Assembly: GCF_056712565.1 (NCBI RefSeq)
Contig: NZ_CM160072.1
DNA: 64,000 nucleotides
Strand: one strand, 5' to 3'
Shown here: piece by piece, positions 45,001 to 51,000 of the stretch
Layout of the letters: every line of letters starts with the position of its first letter
Numbering within the stretch: position 1 is the stretch's first letter
Program-made: the position numbers

Positions 45001-48000
45001 ACGCTCCAGTTCAGGAAAAGGTAAATGACCGTGATGCACATGCATGGCACCAAATTCAGCACAGCGGTGTAGCGTGGGAATGTTTTTTCCTGGGTTCAGC
45101 AAACCATCGGGGTCAAACGCCGCCTTGACCGCATGGAAGGTCGTGATTTCATCGCTGTTGAACTGGGCGCACATTTGATTGATTTTTTCGCGCCCGATGC
45201 CATGTTCCCCACTGATGCTGCCGCCAACTTCAACGCAGAGTTCGAGGATCTTCCCGCCCAGTTCTTCCGCGCGGGCAAATTCACCGGGTTCGTTGGCATC
45301 GAAAAGGATTAACGGGTGCATGTTGCCGTCTCCGGCATGAAAGACGTTGGCAACGCGTAAATCATATTGCTGCGATAAACGGGCAATGCCTTCCAGTACG
45401 CCTGGCAGGGCGCGGCGCGGGATGGTGCCATCCATGCAGTAGTAATCCGGGGAGATACGTCCTACCGCCGGGAACGCATTTTTGCGACCGGCCCAGAAAC
45501 GTACTCGCTCTGCTTCGTCCTGTGCCAGACGGACGTCAGTCGCACCCGCGTTCAACAAGATGTCGTTAACCCGCTCGCAGTCTTCCTGTACGTCAGACTC
45601 CACGCCGTCCAGTTCGCATAACAAAATCGCTTCGGCATCGACGGGATAACCGGCATGAATAAAATCTTCCGCCGCGCGAATCGACAGGTTATCCATCATC
45701 TCCAGCCCACCGGGGATAATGCCATTGGCGATGATGTCACCAACCGCAAGTCCGGCTTTTTCTACCGAGTCAAAGCTGGCTAACAGAACCCGCGCCACGG
45801 GCGGCTTCGGCAACAGCTTCACCGTTACTTCGGTGGTCACGCCGAGCATACCTTCCGATCCGGTAAACAGCGCCAGCAGGTCAAAACCAGGCGAATCCAG
45901 CGCGTCCGATCCCAGCGTCAGCGCCTCGCCATCCAGCATTTGCACTTCAATTTTCAGCAGGTTATGTACGGTTAGACCATATTTCAGGCAGTGAACGCCA
46001 CCGGCATTTTCCGCCACATTGCCGCCAATCGAACAGGCGATTTGTGAGGACGGATCCGGCGCGTAATAGAGATTATGCGGCGCAACGGCCTGGGAGATCG
46101 CCAGGTTACGCACGCCCGGCTGCACGCGCGCGCGGCGACCGATGGGGTTAATGTCGAGGATCTCTTTAAAGCGCGCCATCACCAACAACACACCTTTTTC
46201 CAGCGGCAGCGCGCCACCAGAAAGCCCGGTGCCTGCGCCACGGGTCACCACCGGCACACGCAGGCGGTGGCAGACAGCCAGAATCGCCGTCACCTGTTCC
46301 ATCTGCTTAGGCAGAACAACCAGTAATGGACGCGTGCGATACGCGCTCAACCCGTCACACTCGTAAGGAATGATCTCCTCATCGGTATGCAGGATCTCCA
46401 GTCCAGGGACATGCTCACGCAGTGCCATCAGTACCGATGTGCGGTCGACTTCGGGTAAAGCGCCATCAAGACGCTCTTCGTACAAGATGCTCATGAGTAG
46501 GGTTCGCTTTGTTGTGTTGTGTGGCAGCTGATTTTTTCGCGCTGCTTCTGTGAACAGTTATTAAGCGGGCTTTTCGTTTTCGTCTATCTCTTTAGCTACC
46601 GGTCAGACCATTTTTTTTCCAGCTCTGTGACCTTGCTTTGGTTAACTTAATGTTAAATTGATGTAACATAATCACTTACGTGATGTGCGTGTTTTGCGAG
46701 TTAAGAACAGAAAAATTGGTCCTACCTGTGCACGAGGTCCGGGAATGAAAGATGAACGTCGCCCTATTTGCGAAGTGGTTGCAGAGAGTATCGAACGGTT
46801 AATTATCGACGGCGTGTTGAAGGTCGGTCAGCCGCTTCCCTCGGAACGTCGGCTGTGTGAAAAGCTCGGCTTCTCACGCTCCGCACTGCGTGAAGGGCTG
46901 ACCGTGCTGCGCGGGCGCGGGATTATTGAAACGGCGCAGGGTCGCGATTCTCGTGTCGCACGGCTTAATCGGGTGCAGGACGCCAGCCCGCTGATCCATC
47001 TGTTCAGTACGCAGCCGCGAACGCTGTACGATCTGCTCGACGTTCGCGCATTACTGGAGGGCGAATCGGCAAGGCTGGCGGCAACGCTGGGAACCCAGGC
47101 TGATTTTGTTGTGATAACCCGCTGTTATGAAAAAATGCTCGCCGCCAGTGAGAACAACAAAGAGATTTCGCTGATCGAACATGCGCAGTTGGATCACGCT
47201 TTCCATCTCGCCATTTGTCAGGCTTCTCACAATCAGGTGCTGGTGTTTACGCTGCAATCATTGACCGACCTGATGTTTAATTCGGTGTTTGCCAGCGTAA
47301 ATAATCTCTACCATCGACCACAGCAAAAAAAGCAGATCGATCGCCAGCATGCGCGGATCTACAACGCGGTGTTGCAGCGGCTGCCGCACGTTGCCCAGCG
47401 CGCAGCACGCGATCATGTGCGGACCGTGAAAAAGAATCTCCACGATATCGAGCTGGAAGGCCACCATTTGATTCGCTCGGCGGTGCCGCTGGAGATGAAG
47501 CAGGGGTGACTGCCATCAAATCTGCTTTTCATACAATCGGTAACGCTTGTACGGCTCCGCCCCAATGCGTTCCAGCATGTTATTCATGCCTGTATTGGTT
47601 TCGAGGATCCATGACATTTCCAGCGCATCGATCTTCCGGCGGGCAAACGGATCGTGTAAGGCTTCAATCAATAACAGCGCAATCACCGGGCCGATGCGGC
47701 TGAACTGATACTCGTCCCGCACGCCCATCAGCGGCACTCGCGCAGTTCGCACACCGCTGACTTTCAAACGCCACAGCAATTTTGCCCAGCCGAAGGGAAA
47801 GAGCGATCCGTTCAGATCGACAATCGCCTCGTTGATGTTCGGCAAGCCAACAATAAACGCGCAGGGTGCAGAATCAATCTCAGCGATGTAGATCATATCG
47901 TCCGGCACCAGATATTTAAGTTGATCGCCCATGGTCGCGAATTCATGTTCGGTAAACGGCACAAATCCCCAGTTGTGCTGCCAGCCAGAATTGAAAATCT

Positions 48001-51000
48001 CACGCAGGATCTGCATATCTTCGGCAAACCGCTGGCGATTGATGCAGCGAATGGTCACTTTTTTGCGCACCTGATCCATCAGTTTTTTTAGCGCCGGAGA
48101 GAAAGTGAGATCGGTTCGCTGCATCCACCACGCCAGTAAATCAATGCCTTTGTGATAACCCAGTTGTTCAATATGCGCGGCATACCACGGTTTGCCGTGT
48201 GGCATCATCGCACAGGGCGGAGTGTCAAAACCTTCAATCAGTAATCCGCTTTCCTGATTGATATTCAGGCTGAAAGGCCCGCTGATCTTACTTGCACCTT
48301 GTGACTTCAACCACGCTTCCGCTGTACCAAACAACGCGGCAAAAACCTGCGGATCATCAATGGAGTCAATCATGCCGAAATGACCGGTATCTTCACCGTA
48401 ACGCTCACGGTGCAAGGTATCGATTTGCGCGGTAATCCGCCCGACTATCTGCCCGGCTTTTTTTGCTACCCACGCCTGCCAGATGATATGGTCCGTCCCC
48501 GGATTCTTCGCAGACAAATGCTCGCTGCGTTCAATGAATAAAGGGGGTATCCAGTTTGGATCATCGGGATAAAGTGATGACGGAAAAGCGATAAATGCCT
48601 TAAGGTCTTTTTTATTAATTACTTTTTCAATTTTAATCATCAGCAGATCGCATTCCATATCTCTGTGGATAACAAATAATTAACGGTGAAAAACAGGTTG
48701 CAACAGCAACGAACGGCATCTTAATAATCAACCCAATGAATACAAACAAAGAATAAATAGTATTTATTAATGATTACGATAAGGTCAAAGACTACACAGA
48801 AGCGCCACAATGCCTCTTGTCGATTTAAGGCGACCGGACAAGGCTCCTTCTTAATATATTCACAAATTAAATATCATTCACAATAAAAACAAAAAAGCCA
48901 AACTTATTATTTAAATCAATGTTCATTTTCACACCGATGAAAATACTATCTCATTTATCTTTTATGCCTATATAATCCACCGCATTATTGTCATTTTATT
49001 TTTGATATCCAATTTTTTCGTGGTGTATATGTCTAATAAAATCTTTACGCATTCCCTACCTATGCGCTATGCCGATTTTCCAACGCTGGTTGATGCTTTG
49101 GACTACGCCGCTCTGAGTAGCGCCGGAATGAATTTTTATGACAGACGTTGCCAACTTGAAGATCAACTGGAATATCAGACGTTAAAAGCGCGTGCCGAAG
49201 CTGGTGCGAAAAGGTTGTTATCGCTGAACCTGAAAAAAGGCGATCGCGTGGCGCTGATTGCCGAAACGAGTAGCGGGTTTGTAGAGGCTTTTTTTGCCTG
49301 CCAGTATGCCGGCTTAGTCGCCGTCCCGTTGGCGATTCCAATGGGCGTAGGTCAGCGGGATTCCTGGAGCGCCAAACTGCAGGGTTTACTGGCAAGTTGC
49401 CAGCCCGCAGCCATTATCACTGGTGATGAGTGGTTGCCACTGGTCAATGCCGCGACGCATAACAACAACCCCGAATTACATGTTTTAAGCCACGCCTGGT
49501 TTAAGGCATTACCGGAAGCCGATGTTGTGCTCCAGCGTCCAGTTCCAAACGATATCGCCTACCTCCAGTACACCTCCGGCAGCACCCGTTTTCCCCGTGG
49601 CGTCATTATCACCCATCACGAAGTGATGGCTAATCTACGTGCTATAAGCCACGATGGGATTAAATTACGCCCTGGCGACCGCTGCGTCTCCTGGCTGCCT
49701 TTCTACCATGATATGGGACTGGTCGGCTTTCTCCTGACCCCCGTCGCCACGCAGCTTTCAGTAGATTATTTGCGCACTCAGGATTTTGCCATGCGTCCTC
49801 TGCAATGGCTTAAATTGATCAGTAAAAATCGTGGCACCGTTTCCGTTGCACCGCCGTTTGGCTATGAATTGTGCCAGCGCCGCGTGAATGAAAAAGATCT
49901 CGCTGAACTGGATCTTTCCTGCTGGCGCGTCGCTGGTATTGGCGCAGAACCCATATCCGCAGAACAACTCCATCAATTCGCTGAATGTTTCCGTCAGGTT
50001 AACTTTGACGATAAAACTTTCATGCCGTGCTACGGACTGGCAGAAAATGCGCTGGCTGTCAGCTTCTCTGATGAAGCCTGCGGGGTTGTGGTTAACGAAG
50101 TGGATCGCGACATCCTCGAATACCAGGGTAAAGCCGTCGCGCCGGGTGCTGAAACACGCGCCGTATCGACTTTCGTCAACTGCGGTAAAGCGTTGCCGGA
50201 ACATGGCATTGAAATCCGCAATGAAGCAGATATACCTGTCGCGGAACGTGTGGTAGGCCATATTTGCATCTCCGGCCCCAGCCTGATGAGCGGGTACTTT
50301 GGCGACCAGGTTTCGCAAGACGAGATTGCCGCGACGGGCTGGTTAGACACCGGCGACCTTGGTTATCTGCTGGACGGTTATCTGTATGTCACCGGACGCA
50401 TTAAAGATCTGATTATTATTCGTGGCCGTAATATCTGGCCGCAGGATATTGAATACATTGCGGAACAGGAGCCGGAAATTCATTCTGGCGATGCGATTGC
50501 TTTTGTTACCGCCCAGGAAAAAATCATTTTGCAGATCCAGTGTCGGATCAGCGACGAAGAACGTCGCGGGCAGCTTATCCACGCGCTGGCAGCTCGGATC
50601 CAAAGCGAATTTGGCGTTACCGCGGATATCGATCTGTTGCCGCCCCACAGTATTCCCCGAACATCCTCCGGCAAGCCTGCCCGTGCGGAAGCGAAAAAAC
50701 GTTATCAGAAGGCTTATGCTGCCAGTCTTCATGTGCAGGAATCCCTGGCATGAATCAAACTGTCGCGGTGACGGGCGCTACCGGGTTTATCGGTAAATAT
50801 ATTATTGATAACCTGCTCGCCCGCGGCTTTCATGTTCGCGCATTGACGCGTACTGCCCGCGCTCACGTCAATGATAATCTCACTTGGGTGCGCGGTTCGC
50901 TGGAAGATACACATTCGCTTAGCGAACTGGTTGCCGGAGCCAGCGCGGTGGTCCATTGCGCCGGGCAAGTGCGCGGGCACAAAGAAGAGATTTTTACCCG

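What the first reader, a model, noticed from the sequence alone, without database searches (positions are those of the whole stretch)
47516..48658. Intact yghO as candidate N-acyltransferase partner of the lipid module
yghO is an uninterrupted 380-aa ORF here. From memory it is a disrupted pseudogene in K-12 and is annotated as acetyltransferase-like; neither point was verified on this sequence. Bacterial ceramide synthesis needs an N-acyltransferase in addition to the SPT/ACP/reductase genes, and yghO sits immediately divergent from the FAAL operon, which makes it a positional candidate for that step.
Basis: inference. Interest (0 to 1): 0.55.

Follow-up and report, generated by a model that had tools for sequence, protein, structure and literature searches.

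The report
E. coli YghO, predicted bacterial ceramide synthase
The gene is real and intact, and it is very probably the N-acyltransferase (ceramide synthase) of a sphingolipid gene cluster that most E. coli strains carry and K-12 has lost, but a 2022 paper already made this assignment, so it is a correct reading and not a discovery.

Summary
Window 47516..48658 (minus strand) is an uninterrupted 380-aa ORF that RefSeq names 'protein YghO'. It is under strong purifying selection (dN/dS 0.04-0.11). It lies 343-403 bp from, and divergent to, an operon of fatty acyl-AMP ligase, SDR reductase, acyl carrier protein and serine palmitoyltransferase.

- **Synteny.** In 68 of the 80 most similar genome loci, across several phyla, the homologue lies within 10 kb of sphingolipid genes (the spt operon, and/or the LptF2/LptG2 paralogues, as in Caulobacter).
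- **Population.** The yghO-FAAL junction is intact in 4108 of 5426 complete E. coli genomes. K-12 and 350 other genomes carry an IS5-linked deletion that removed the operon and replaced the first 13 YghO codons.

A published table gives 44% identity (E 1e-107, 98% coverage) between BL21 YghO and Caulobacter CC_1154, the genetically defined ceramide synthase, and names yghO as its E. coli counterpart (PMC9386255). I could not fetch the Caulobacter sequence to repeat that comparison. No activity data for YghO were found. Verdict: correct, ordinary, already known as a prediction.

The parts
47516..48658 (-). yghO: 380-aa (or 374-aa from M7) soluble tandem-GNAT protein, predicted bacterial ceramide synthase (bCerS/CerS/Aca orthologue). 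The N-terminal GNAT-like domain is about residues 8-185 and the C-terminal GNAT domain about residues 200-380. The C-terminal domain holds the only stretch that aligns to GNAT CoA-binding motifs.
   Evidence: ORF. RefSeq name. No Pfam or NCBIfam hit. AF2 model pLDDT 96.4. Tandem-GNAT fold. Profile hits to GNAT motif A/B at residues 299-378. dN/dS 0.04-0.11. Published homology to CC_1154.
48659..49061 (.). AT-rich (about 30% GC) divergent intergenic region between yghO and the FAAL operon. It presumably holds both promoters. No specific element was identified.
   Evidence: Composition. The promoter and terminator scan was not above the shuffled expectation. The yghO-FAAL junction is conserved in 4108 of 5426 E. 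coli genomes.
49062..50753 (+). Fatty acyl-AMP ligase, the AasR-type specialised acyl-ACP synthetase. The ORF is open from TTG 49002, and the RefSeq start is ATG 49062.
   Evidence: NCBIfam NF006624, 867.9 bits, cutoff 600. Intact here, but with a TAG at 49366 in the ATCC 11775 record. The BL21 orthologue works with AcpR and SPT to make 3-oxo-sphinganine (PMC9386255).
50750..51664 (+). NAD-dependent epimerase/dehydratase-family SDR, the counterpart of Caulobacter CerR (CC_1164), predicted 3-keto reductase.
   Evidence: RefSeq annotation. NCBIfam SDR-type hits, all below cutoff. Listed as 'epi' ECD_02852 in PMC9386255.
51696..51944 (+). Specialised acyl carrier protein (AcpR).
   Evidence: ACP family hits. 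RefSeq. BL21 AcpR carries 4'-phosphopantetheine (PMC9386255).
51944..53116 (+). Serine palmitoyltransferase (spt).
   Evidence: NCBIfam NF047599 equivalog, 599.5 bits, cutoff 500. Present in 4134 of 5426 E. coli genomes. BL21 SPT activity is shown in PMC9386255.
53151..54230 (-). LptG paralogue (LptG2-type), predicted sphingolipid export permease.
   Evidence: RefSeq 'LptG'. It follows yghO homologues in many loci. Caulobacter LptF2/LptG2 are implicated in sphingolipid transport (bioRxiv 10.64898/2026.04.12.717747).
54227..55297 (-). LptF paralogue (LptF2-type), partner of LptG2.
   Evidence: Same as for LptG2.

Best explanation
YghO is the E. coli orthologue of the bacterial ceramide synthase (Caulobacter CC_1154 = CCNA_01212, called bCerS, CerS or Aca). 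It is a soluble two-domain GNAT N-acyltransferase that adds the second, amide-linked acyl chain to the sphingoid base made by the divergent operon. The proposed sequence is as follows. The FAAL (AasR) loads a fatty acid on the dedicated ACP (AcpR). SPT condenses acyl-AcpR with serine to give 3-ketosphinganine; these two steps have been shown for the BL21 proteins. YghO then transfers an acyl group from an acyl thioester to the C2 amine. The donor is acyl-CoA by analogy, and acyl-ACP is not excluded. The SDR reduces the 3-keto group, giving dihydroceramide. The LptF2/LptG2 paralogues then move the lipid towards the outer membrane. Within YghO, the C-terminal GNAT domain (about 200-380) is the only part that aligns to the GNAT motif A/B region (beta4 and the following loop around R307-G323, and the conserved E347 and N355), so I infer that it binds the acyl donor. 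The N-terminal domain has no such signature and probably forms the acceptor (lipid) site, as in other tandem GNATs such as MshD. The YghO step, the donor, the acceptor and the order of acylation and reduction are all inferred for E. coli.
Against: There are no enzymatic or genetic data for YghO itself in the papers searched. I could not fetch the Caulobacter bCerS sequence, so the homology to the characterised enzyme rests on a published table plus synteny. YghO matches no Pfam or NCBIfam model, and the canonical Q/R-x-x-G-x-G/A CoA loop is not strictly kept. The catalytic residues of bCerS are not defined in anything I could read. Some more distant family members (35% identity) and a second Shimwellia paralogue have no sphingolipid genes within 10 kb. 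Native ceramide production by E. coli has not been reported in the held literature. The E. coli SDR starts directly with its Rossmann motif and has no signal peptide, whereas Caulobacter CerR is reported periplasmic, so the order and location of the last two steps may differ in E. coli.
Confidence: 0.82

Rival explanations
1. YghO is a GNAT acyltransferase with a different substrate, for example a protein lysine, an amino sugar or another small amine. On this view its position next to the sphingolipid operon in E. coli does not reflect a shared pathway.
For: No Pfam or NCBIfam model names it. The closest solved folds acetylate amino sugars or mycothiol precursors. A 35%-identical family member and a second Shimwellia copy have no sphingolipid neighbours. 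K-12 keeps an open yghO remnant without the operon.
Against: Linkage to spt, ACP, FAAL and SDR genes or to lptF2/G2 recurs in 68 of 80 loci across several phyla, which is far beyond what neighbouring by chance would give for genes as rare as spt. The Caulobacter homologue is genetically required for ceramide. The K-12 copy has lost its promoter and first beta-strand, so its persistence says little. K-12 YghO was in the panel of GNAT candidates over-expressed in the lysine acetyltransferase screen of PMC6199490. As I recall, it was not among the enzymes that screen identified, but I did not check the paper's results.
Confidence: 0.06
2. YghO is a ceramide synthase orthologue, but the E. coli locus is silent or decaying. 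The gene would then have no present function in most strains, and E. coli would make no sphingolipid.
For: The type-strain record has a premature TAG in the FAAL gene at window position 49366. K-12 and 350 other complete genomes lost the operon with no known phenotype. The divergent promoter region is 30% GC, typical of silenced DNA in E. coli (the silencing link is my inference). No report of native E. coli ceramide was found.
Against: dN/dS of 0.04-0.11 within and between genera argues for continuing selection on the protein. The whole locus is syntenic and intact in 76% of complete E. coli genomes and in many Enterobacterales. The BL21 AasR, AcpR and SPT are active when expressed.
Confidence: 0.1
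3. YghO is a DNA-binding transcriptional regulator or a dATP pyrophosphohydrolase, as some database entries call it and its homologues.
For: Only inherited database names support this.
Against: The confident model is two GNAT domains with no helix-turn-helix or Nudix/MazG-like fold. All significant structural neighbours are acyltransferases.
Confidence: 0.01

Closest known systems
Caulobacter crescentus bacterial ceramide synthase bCerS / CerS / Aca (CC_1154 = CCNA_01212, UniProt A0A0H3C8X0)
   Same: About 380-aa soluble GNAT-type protein. Published 44% identity over 98% of its length with BL21 YghO. Encoded in a locus with spt, acpR, aasR, cerR and lptF2/lptG2. Required, in Caulobacter, for dihydroceramide synthesis.
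   Different: In E. coli the gene is divergent from the spt operon. In Caulobacter it lies beside lptG2/lptF2, eight or more genes from spt. The E. coli locus has no recognised head-group genes (cpg genes). YghO activity, acyl donor and chain-length preference are untested. I could not repeat the direct sequence comparison here.
Solved tandem-GNAT acetyltransferases: M. abscessus MAB_4324 (7q3a), C. acetobutylicum glucosamine N-acetyltransferase (5kf1), mycothiol synthase MshD (1ozp), clavulanate ORF14 (2wpw)
   Different: Only 13-14% sequence identity. Those enzymes transfer acetyl groups to soluble amino sugars or related amines, not long acyl chains to a lipid amine. YghO has family-specific motifs absent from them, such as F-I-x-L-P-x-x-L-Y-x-D-D-P-x-W-V-P-P-L near the N-terminus and N-W-G-F-V-P at 229-234.
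Eukaryotic ceramide synthases (Lag1/CerS, TLC-domain family)
   Same: The same predicted reaction: N-acylation of a sphingoid base with an activated fatty acid.
   Different: An unrelated fold. The eukaryotic enzymes are multi-pass membrane proteins, whereas YghO is a soluble alpha/beta GNAT with no Pfam TLC hit. This is the convergent evolution named in the title of the Nat Chem Biol 2022 paper on bCerS, which I could cite but not read.
N-myristoyltransferase (2p6e)
   Different: It has a protein N-terminal glycine as acceptor. It is eukaryotic, 13% identical, and has no pathway relation.

Membership tests
Bacterial ceramide synthase (bCerS/CerS/Aca; CC_1154 = CCNA_01212 family) | Full-length sequence homology to the genetically and biochemically characterised Caulobacter enzyme | not testable with these tools
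   No tool could fetch the Caulobacter sequence (A0A0H3C8X0), and the primary paper PMC8891067 is not held. The published value for BL21 YghO versus CC_1154 is E 1e-107, 44% identity and 98% coverage (PMC9386255 Table S2). All E. coli yghO copies are at least 95% identical in DNA to the window copy.
Bacterial ceramide synthase (bCerS/CerS/Aca; CC_1154 = CCNA_01212 family) | Soluble GNAT-superfamily acyltransferase fold, not a TLC membrane protein | tested here: met
Bacterial ceramide synthase (bCerS/CerS/Aca; CC_1154 = CCNA_01212 family) | Encoded with, or co-occurring with, spt and the CerR-type reductase (the Klein-lab criterion for a sphingolipid producer: Spt + bCerS + CerR) | tested here: met
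   In the window, spt (NF047599, 599.5 bits, cutoff 500), the SDR, the ACP and the FAAL lie within 4.5 kb. The same linkage, or linkage to lptF2/G2, holds in 68 of the 80 closest genome loci. The yghO-FAAL junction is intact in 4108 of 5426 E. coli genomes.
Bacterial ceramide synthase (bCerS/CerS/Aca; CC_1154 = CCNA_01212 family) | Retention of an acyl-CoA binding site and catalytic residues | tested here: inconclusive
   Residues 299-378 align to GNAT motif A/B of 2ge3 and 3tt2 (E 0.002-0.005). R307, G312, E347, W350, N355, K371, Y373 and R374 are at least 90% conserved in 70 family members. The canonical Q/R-x-x-G-x-G/A loop is not conserved as such, and no catalytic residues of bCerS are defined in the literature I could read.
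Bacterial ceramide synthase (bCerS/CerS/Aca; CC_1154 = CCNA_01212 family) | N-acylation of 3-ketosphinganine or sphinganine, and loss of ceramide on deletion | not testable with these tools
   This needs enzymology and lipidomics. The only indirect hint is ceramide-like TLC spots in BL21 expressing SPT, AcpR and AasR (PMC9386255).
Canonical GNAT acetyltransferases as defined by Pfam (Acetyltransf_1, PF00583 and relatives) | Significant match to a Pfam GNAT model | tested here: not met
   YghO has no Pfam hit even at E<=10. Among 70 relatives, 9 reach E<=1e-3 and 33 reach E<=0.1 for PF00583. YghO is a member of the superfamily by fold but lies outside the Pfam sequence models.
Eukaryotic ceramide synthase (Lag1/TLC domain) | TLC domain, multi-pass membrane topology | tested here: not met
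   No Pfam TLC hit, and the fold is a GNAT. YghO is predicted to work like a CerS but is not a member of that family.

The most novel reading that the evidence does not exclude
Most natural E. coli strains, about three quarters of complete genomes, would make a ceramide-type outer-membrane lipid under conditions not reproduced in the laboratory. YghO would be the committed N-acylation step. Because it is paired with a dedicated FAAL and ACP and not with an acyl-CoA synthetase, it might take its acyl chain from acyl-AcpR and not from acyl-CoA. The E. coli reductase also appears to be cytoplasmic, so the order or location of the last two steps could differ from the Caulobacter model.
Probability: 0.2. 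Interest if true: 0.5.

Novelty: already known. Interest (0 to 1): 0.2.

Why it matters
If the assignment is right, E. coli, the organism whose lipids are best studied, carries in most wild strains a complete five-gene ceramide pathway plus a dedicated LptF/G-like exporter. The K-12 laboratory lineage deleted it, so the pathway has gone largely unstudied. YghO is the step that turns a sphingoid base into a membrane lipid. A yghO knockout in a non-K-12 strain is therefore the cleanest way to ask whether, and when, E. coli makes sphingolipids, and what they do for outer-membrane function or host interaction. The gene-to-function assignment itself adds nothing to what Padilla-Gomez et al. 2022 and the Caulobacter work already state. 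What this analysis adds is the fold, the breadth of the synteny, the E. coli population figures and the exact nature of the K-12 lesion.

Tried and rejected
1. Pfam and NCBIfam scans of YghO gave no hits at all. A sequence search of the PDB with the single protein gave only noise.
2. I tried several routes to the Caulobacter bCerS sequence for a direct comparison, and none worked. The primary paper is not held. Two cluster look-ups on GC-rich representatives at 39-47% identity returned Kiloniellales, Dongiaceae, Rhodovibrio and unnamed metagenome proteins, not Caulobacter. AFDB50 neighbours were named but none was Caulobacter. The genome scan returned only the 80 closest loci, which did not include Caulobacterales.
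A 12-sequence alignment worked.
4. hhalign of the N-terminal half against the C-terminal half gave an in-register but non-significant match (probability 7.6%, E 0.005). The internal duplication is therefore supported by structure only.
5. The promoter and terminator scan of the divergent region gave nothing above the shuffled expectation.
6. I considered the YghO-FAAL fusion protein P0182 as Rosetta-stone evidence. It occurs on a single contig full of fragmented genes, so I give it little weight.
7. I checked whether the neighbouring 'dTMP kinase'-like yghS/yghT genes could be the ceramide kinase. The Caulobacter kinase CpgB is a DAG-kinase-like enzyme with a GGDG motif, so I dropped the idea.
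8. The old annotations 'DNA-binding transcriptional regulator' and 'dATP pyrophosphohydrolase' were rejected on the fold.
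Full report
**Observation.** The window holds an uninterrupted ORF on the minus strand from ATG 48658 to the stop at 47516, 380 aa. The window is E. coli. Over the 29 kb compared it differs at five positions from the type strain ATCC 11775 (CP033092.2), whose RefSeq annotation calls this CDS 'yghO: protein YghO'. glcC lies upstream. On the other side, 343-403 bp away and divergent, are a fatty acyl-AMP ligase (NCBIfam NF006624, 867.9 bits), an SDR of the NAD-dependent epimerase/dehydratase family, an acyl carrier protein and spt (NCBIfam serine palmitoyltransferase equivalog NF047599, 599.5 bits, cutoff 500). Beyond these, on the opposite strand, are LptG and LptF paralogues, a YtfJ-family gene, a hypothetical gene and yghQ.

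The gene is not a chance ORF. It occurs at 95-100% DNA identity in 4548 of 5426 complete E. coli genomes. It evolves under strong purifying selection, with dN/dS 0.09-0.11 within E. coli and 0.04-0.10 against Shimwellia, Pseudocitrobacter, Pluralibacter and Serratia.

First, in ten other Enterobacterales genera the gene starts at the ATG equivalent to E. coli M7, preceded by an AAGG ribosome-binding site. The six-codon E. coli extension is not conserved and is the only low-confidence part of the structural model. The protein may therefore be 374 aa.

Second, K-12 yghO is not interrupted internally. An IS5-associated deletion removed everything from the FAAL gene to part of yghQ. It replaced the first 13 codons, including the first beta-strand, with 11 unrelated codons. 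The rest is open and 97.6% identical, and PGAP annotates it as a 378-aa protein. The same junction is present in 351 complete genomes, mostly laboratory K-12 derivatives. The yghO-FAAL junction seen in the window is intact in 4108 of 5426 genomes. The window therefore shows the normal E. coli state and K-12 the exception.

**What the protein is.**
- *Sequence models:* YghO matches no Pfam model even at E<=10 and no NCBIfam model. As a single sequence it finds nothing in the PDB.
- *Family size:* it belongs to a very large family, with 6487 clusters at 50% identity at E<=1e-3 and 1100 at E<=1e-30. Members are nearly all 370-400 aa and align end to end.
- *Weak GNAT signal:* of 70 diverse members, 9 reach E<=1e-3 and 33 reach E<=0.1 for Pfam Acetyltransf_1. 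A profile of the family aligns residues 299-378 to motif A/B of solved GNATs (2ge3, 3tt2; E 0.002-0.005).
- *Old names:* the fold excludes the inherited names 'DNA-binding protein' and 'dATP pyrophosphohydrolase' seen on some homologues.

Conserved positions cluster in three places: an N-terminal family motif (F22, P26, P39-L40), the N-domain (G73-R74, G92-F94-G95, P128, G138-L140-G143), and the C-domain (W226, N229-W230-G231, P234, R307, G312, E347, W350, N355, K371, Y373-R374). The only stretch that looks like a CoA-binding GNAT core is in the C-terminal domain. I therefore infer that this domain holds the acyl donor and that the N-terminal domain contributes the acceptor site, as in other tandem GNATs. 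This is inference, because the catalytic residues of this family are not defined in anything I could read.

**Context elsewhere.** I scanned one genome per species (GTDB) with a 12-sequence alignment and kept the 80 closest loci, at 45-94% identity. I then searched their flanks with the window's proteins.
- The E. coli arrangement, with yghO divergent from FAAL-SDR-ACP-spt, recurs in Shimwellia, Pluralibacter, Serratia, Erwinia, Tatumella, Pseudocitrobacter, Rosenbergiella, Cedecea, Hafnia and Mangrovibacter. It also recurs in Pseudomonas, Salinicola, Nitrococcus, and in Nitrospira, Gemmatimonadota, betaproteobacterial and deltaproteobacterial MAGs.
- In Nitrosomonas, Nitrosospira and relatives the homologue is followed instead by lptF2-lptG2. 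That matches the neighbourhood of CC_1154 in Caulobacter, which lies beside CC_1155 and CC_1156.
- In all, 68 of 80 loci carry at least one sphingolipid gene in the available flank. Five of the twelve exceptions are short contigs (under 10 kb). The others are a second Shimwellia copy (72%), three Luteibacter/Dyella loci and three gammaproteobacterial MAGs.
- Further out in the family the linkage is not universal. A 35%-identical member sits among housekeeping genes. A 39%-identical one is followed by an epimerase-type SDR and a PAP2 phosphatase.
- A fusion of a fatty-acid hydroxylase domain with a YghO-like domain, followed by ACP and ketoacyl synthase genes on a 3.8-Mb contig, again points to a lipid substrate. 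A YghO-FAAL fusion exists, but on one poor contig.

**Comparison with what is known.**
- *The Caulobacter pathway:* in Caulobacter crescentus five genes are needed for dihydroceramide: spt, acpR, aasR, cerR and CC_1154 (CCNA_01212, bCerS/CerS). The last encodes the N-acyltransferase.
- *The published yghO assignment:* Padilla-Gomez et al. 2022 list 'aca: CC_1154, yghO ECD_02850' in their figure of sphingolipid loci. [quoted passage not shown] They tabulate 44% identity, 61% similarity, 98% coverage and E 1e-107 between the two proteins.
- *Biochemistry of the E. coli neighbours:* the same paper shows that BL21 AasR, AcpR and SPT together make 3-oxo-sphinganine. It notes extra spots migrating like sphinganine and ceramide, which it attributes to intrinsic BL21 enzymes.
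- *Order of steps and export:* the Klein laboratory places bCerS in the cytoplasm, acting on 3-ketosphinganine before a periplasmic CerR. It also shows the E. coli UTI89 locus alongside the Caulobacter one when describing LptF2/LptG2.

In the held literature only that one paper links yghO to ceramide, and none reports YghO activity or native E. coli ceramide. I could not obtain the Caulobacter sequence, so the direct homology test rests on the published table. The fold, the synteny and the population data are my independent tests.

**Mechanism and status of each step.**
- *Shown for the E. coli (BL21) proteins:* FAAL/AasR loads AcpR, and SPT uses acyl-AcpR and serine to form 3-ketosphinganine.
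- *Inferred by orthology and context:* YghO N-acylates the sphingoid base, and the SDR reduces the 3-keto group. The order is disputed even for Caulobacter. LptF2/LptG2 export the product.
- *Open for E. coli:* the acyl donor, which could be acyl-CoA or acyl-AcpR. Also open is whether the reductase is cytoplasmic. It begins MNQTVAVTGATGFIGK, with no room for a signal peptide, unlike the periplasmic location reported for Caulobacter CerR. It is also unknown whether the locus is expressed, since the divergent control region is 30% GC.

**Rivals.**
- *Unrelated GNAT function:* made unlikely by the cross-phylum linkage (confidence 0.06).
- *Silent or decaying locus:* this has some support. The type-strain record has a TAG in the FAAL gene at window 49366, where the window has TGG, and K-12 lost the operon. 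The low dN/dS and the 76% intact prevalence argue against it (confidence 0.1).
- *Regulator or pyrophosphohydrolase names:* excluded by the fold (confidence 0.01).

**Verdict.** YghO is best described as the E. coli member of the bacterial ceramide synthase family, a tandem-GNAT N-acyltransferase. This is already known as a published prediction, with no experimental test of YghO itself. Interest is low (0.2). The remaining value lies in the open question of whether, and when, wild E. coli makes sphingolipids.

Noticed in passing
window 49366 (within FAAL 49062-50753): The window has G (TGG, Trp) where the ATCC 11775 RefSeq record has A (TAG). In that record the FAAL is flagged as a pseudogene with an internal stop. 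The FAAL is intact in the window. This is one of only 5 differences in 29 kb.
   Followed up: yes
window 53151-54230 (-) and 54227-55297 (-): RefSeq names these 'LPS export ABC transporter permease LptG/LptF'. They are extra paralogues inside the sphingolipid locus. They match the LptG2/LptF2 pair that a 2026 preprint implicates in sphingolipid transport in Caulobacter, so the RefSeq name is probably misleading.
   Followed up: partly
window 56724-58073 (-), yghQ: Here yghQ is an intact 449-aa 'lipopolysaccharide biosynthesis protein' (Wzx/MOP-like). The same IS5 deletion truncates it in K-12. The Caulobacter locus has CC_1166, a putative flippase of the same InterPro type (IPR002797). yghQ may therefore be the missing ceramide flippase. 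It is co-conserved with the locus in most Enterobacterales loci examined.
   Followed up: partly
window 55328-55888 (-) and 55888-56724 (-): A YtfJ-family gene and a 278-aa hypothetical gene are co-conserved with the locus across Enterobacterales (52-90% identity). A homologue of the 278-aa protein also lies about 10 kb from the yghO homologue in Luteibacter and Dyella (L066, L077, L080), which otherwise show no sphingolipid genes nearby. Function unknown.
   Followed up: no
L004 and L013 (Shimwellia pseudoproteus): This species has two yghO-like genes. One is 82% identical and sits inside a full sphingolipid locus. The other is 72% identical and has no sphingolipid gene within 10 kb. This may be a paralogue with a diverged role.
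   Followed up: no
L090 8001-9893 (protein P0132) and L089 10001-12823 (protein P0182): Two natural fusions were seen. P0132 joins a fatty-acid hydroxylase domain (PF04116) to a YghO-like domain and is followed by ACP and ketoacyl-synthase genes on a 3.8-Mb contig. P0182 joins a YghO-like domain to a FAAL, but on a single contig with many fragmented genes, so it may be an assembly artefact.
   Followed up: partly
window 48659-49061: The divergent yghO/FAAL intergenic region is about 30% GC against about 50% in the flanking genes. Simple promoter scans find nothing above chance. Xenogeneic silencing (H-NS) is a possibility that was not tested.
   Followed up: partly
window 50750-51664 (+), SDR / CerR counterpart: The protein starts MNQTVAVTGATGFIGK, so the Rossmann glycine motif begins at residue 9 and there is no signal peptide. 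Caulobacter CerR is reported to be periplasmic. Either the export route is unconventional or the E. coli enzyme is cytoplasmic.
   Followed up: no
window 48641-48658 (first six codons of yghO): The annotated start (M1) is E. coli-specific. Other genera start at the equivalent of M7 behind an AAGG Shine-Dalgarno sequence that E. coli lacks, so the true E. coli start is uncertain.
   Followed up: yes
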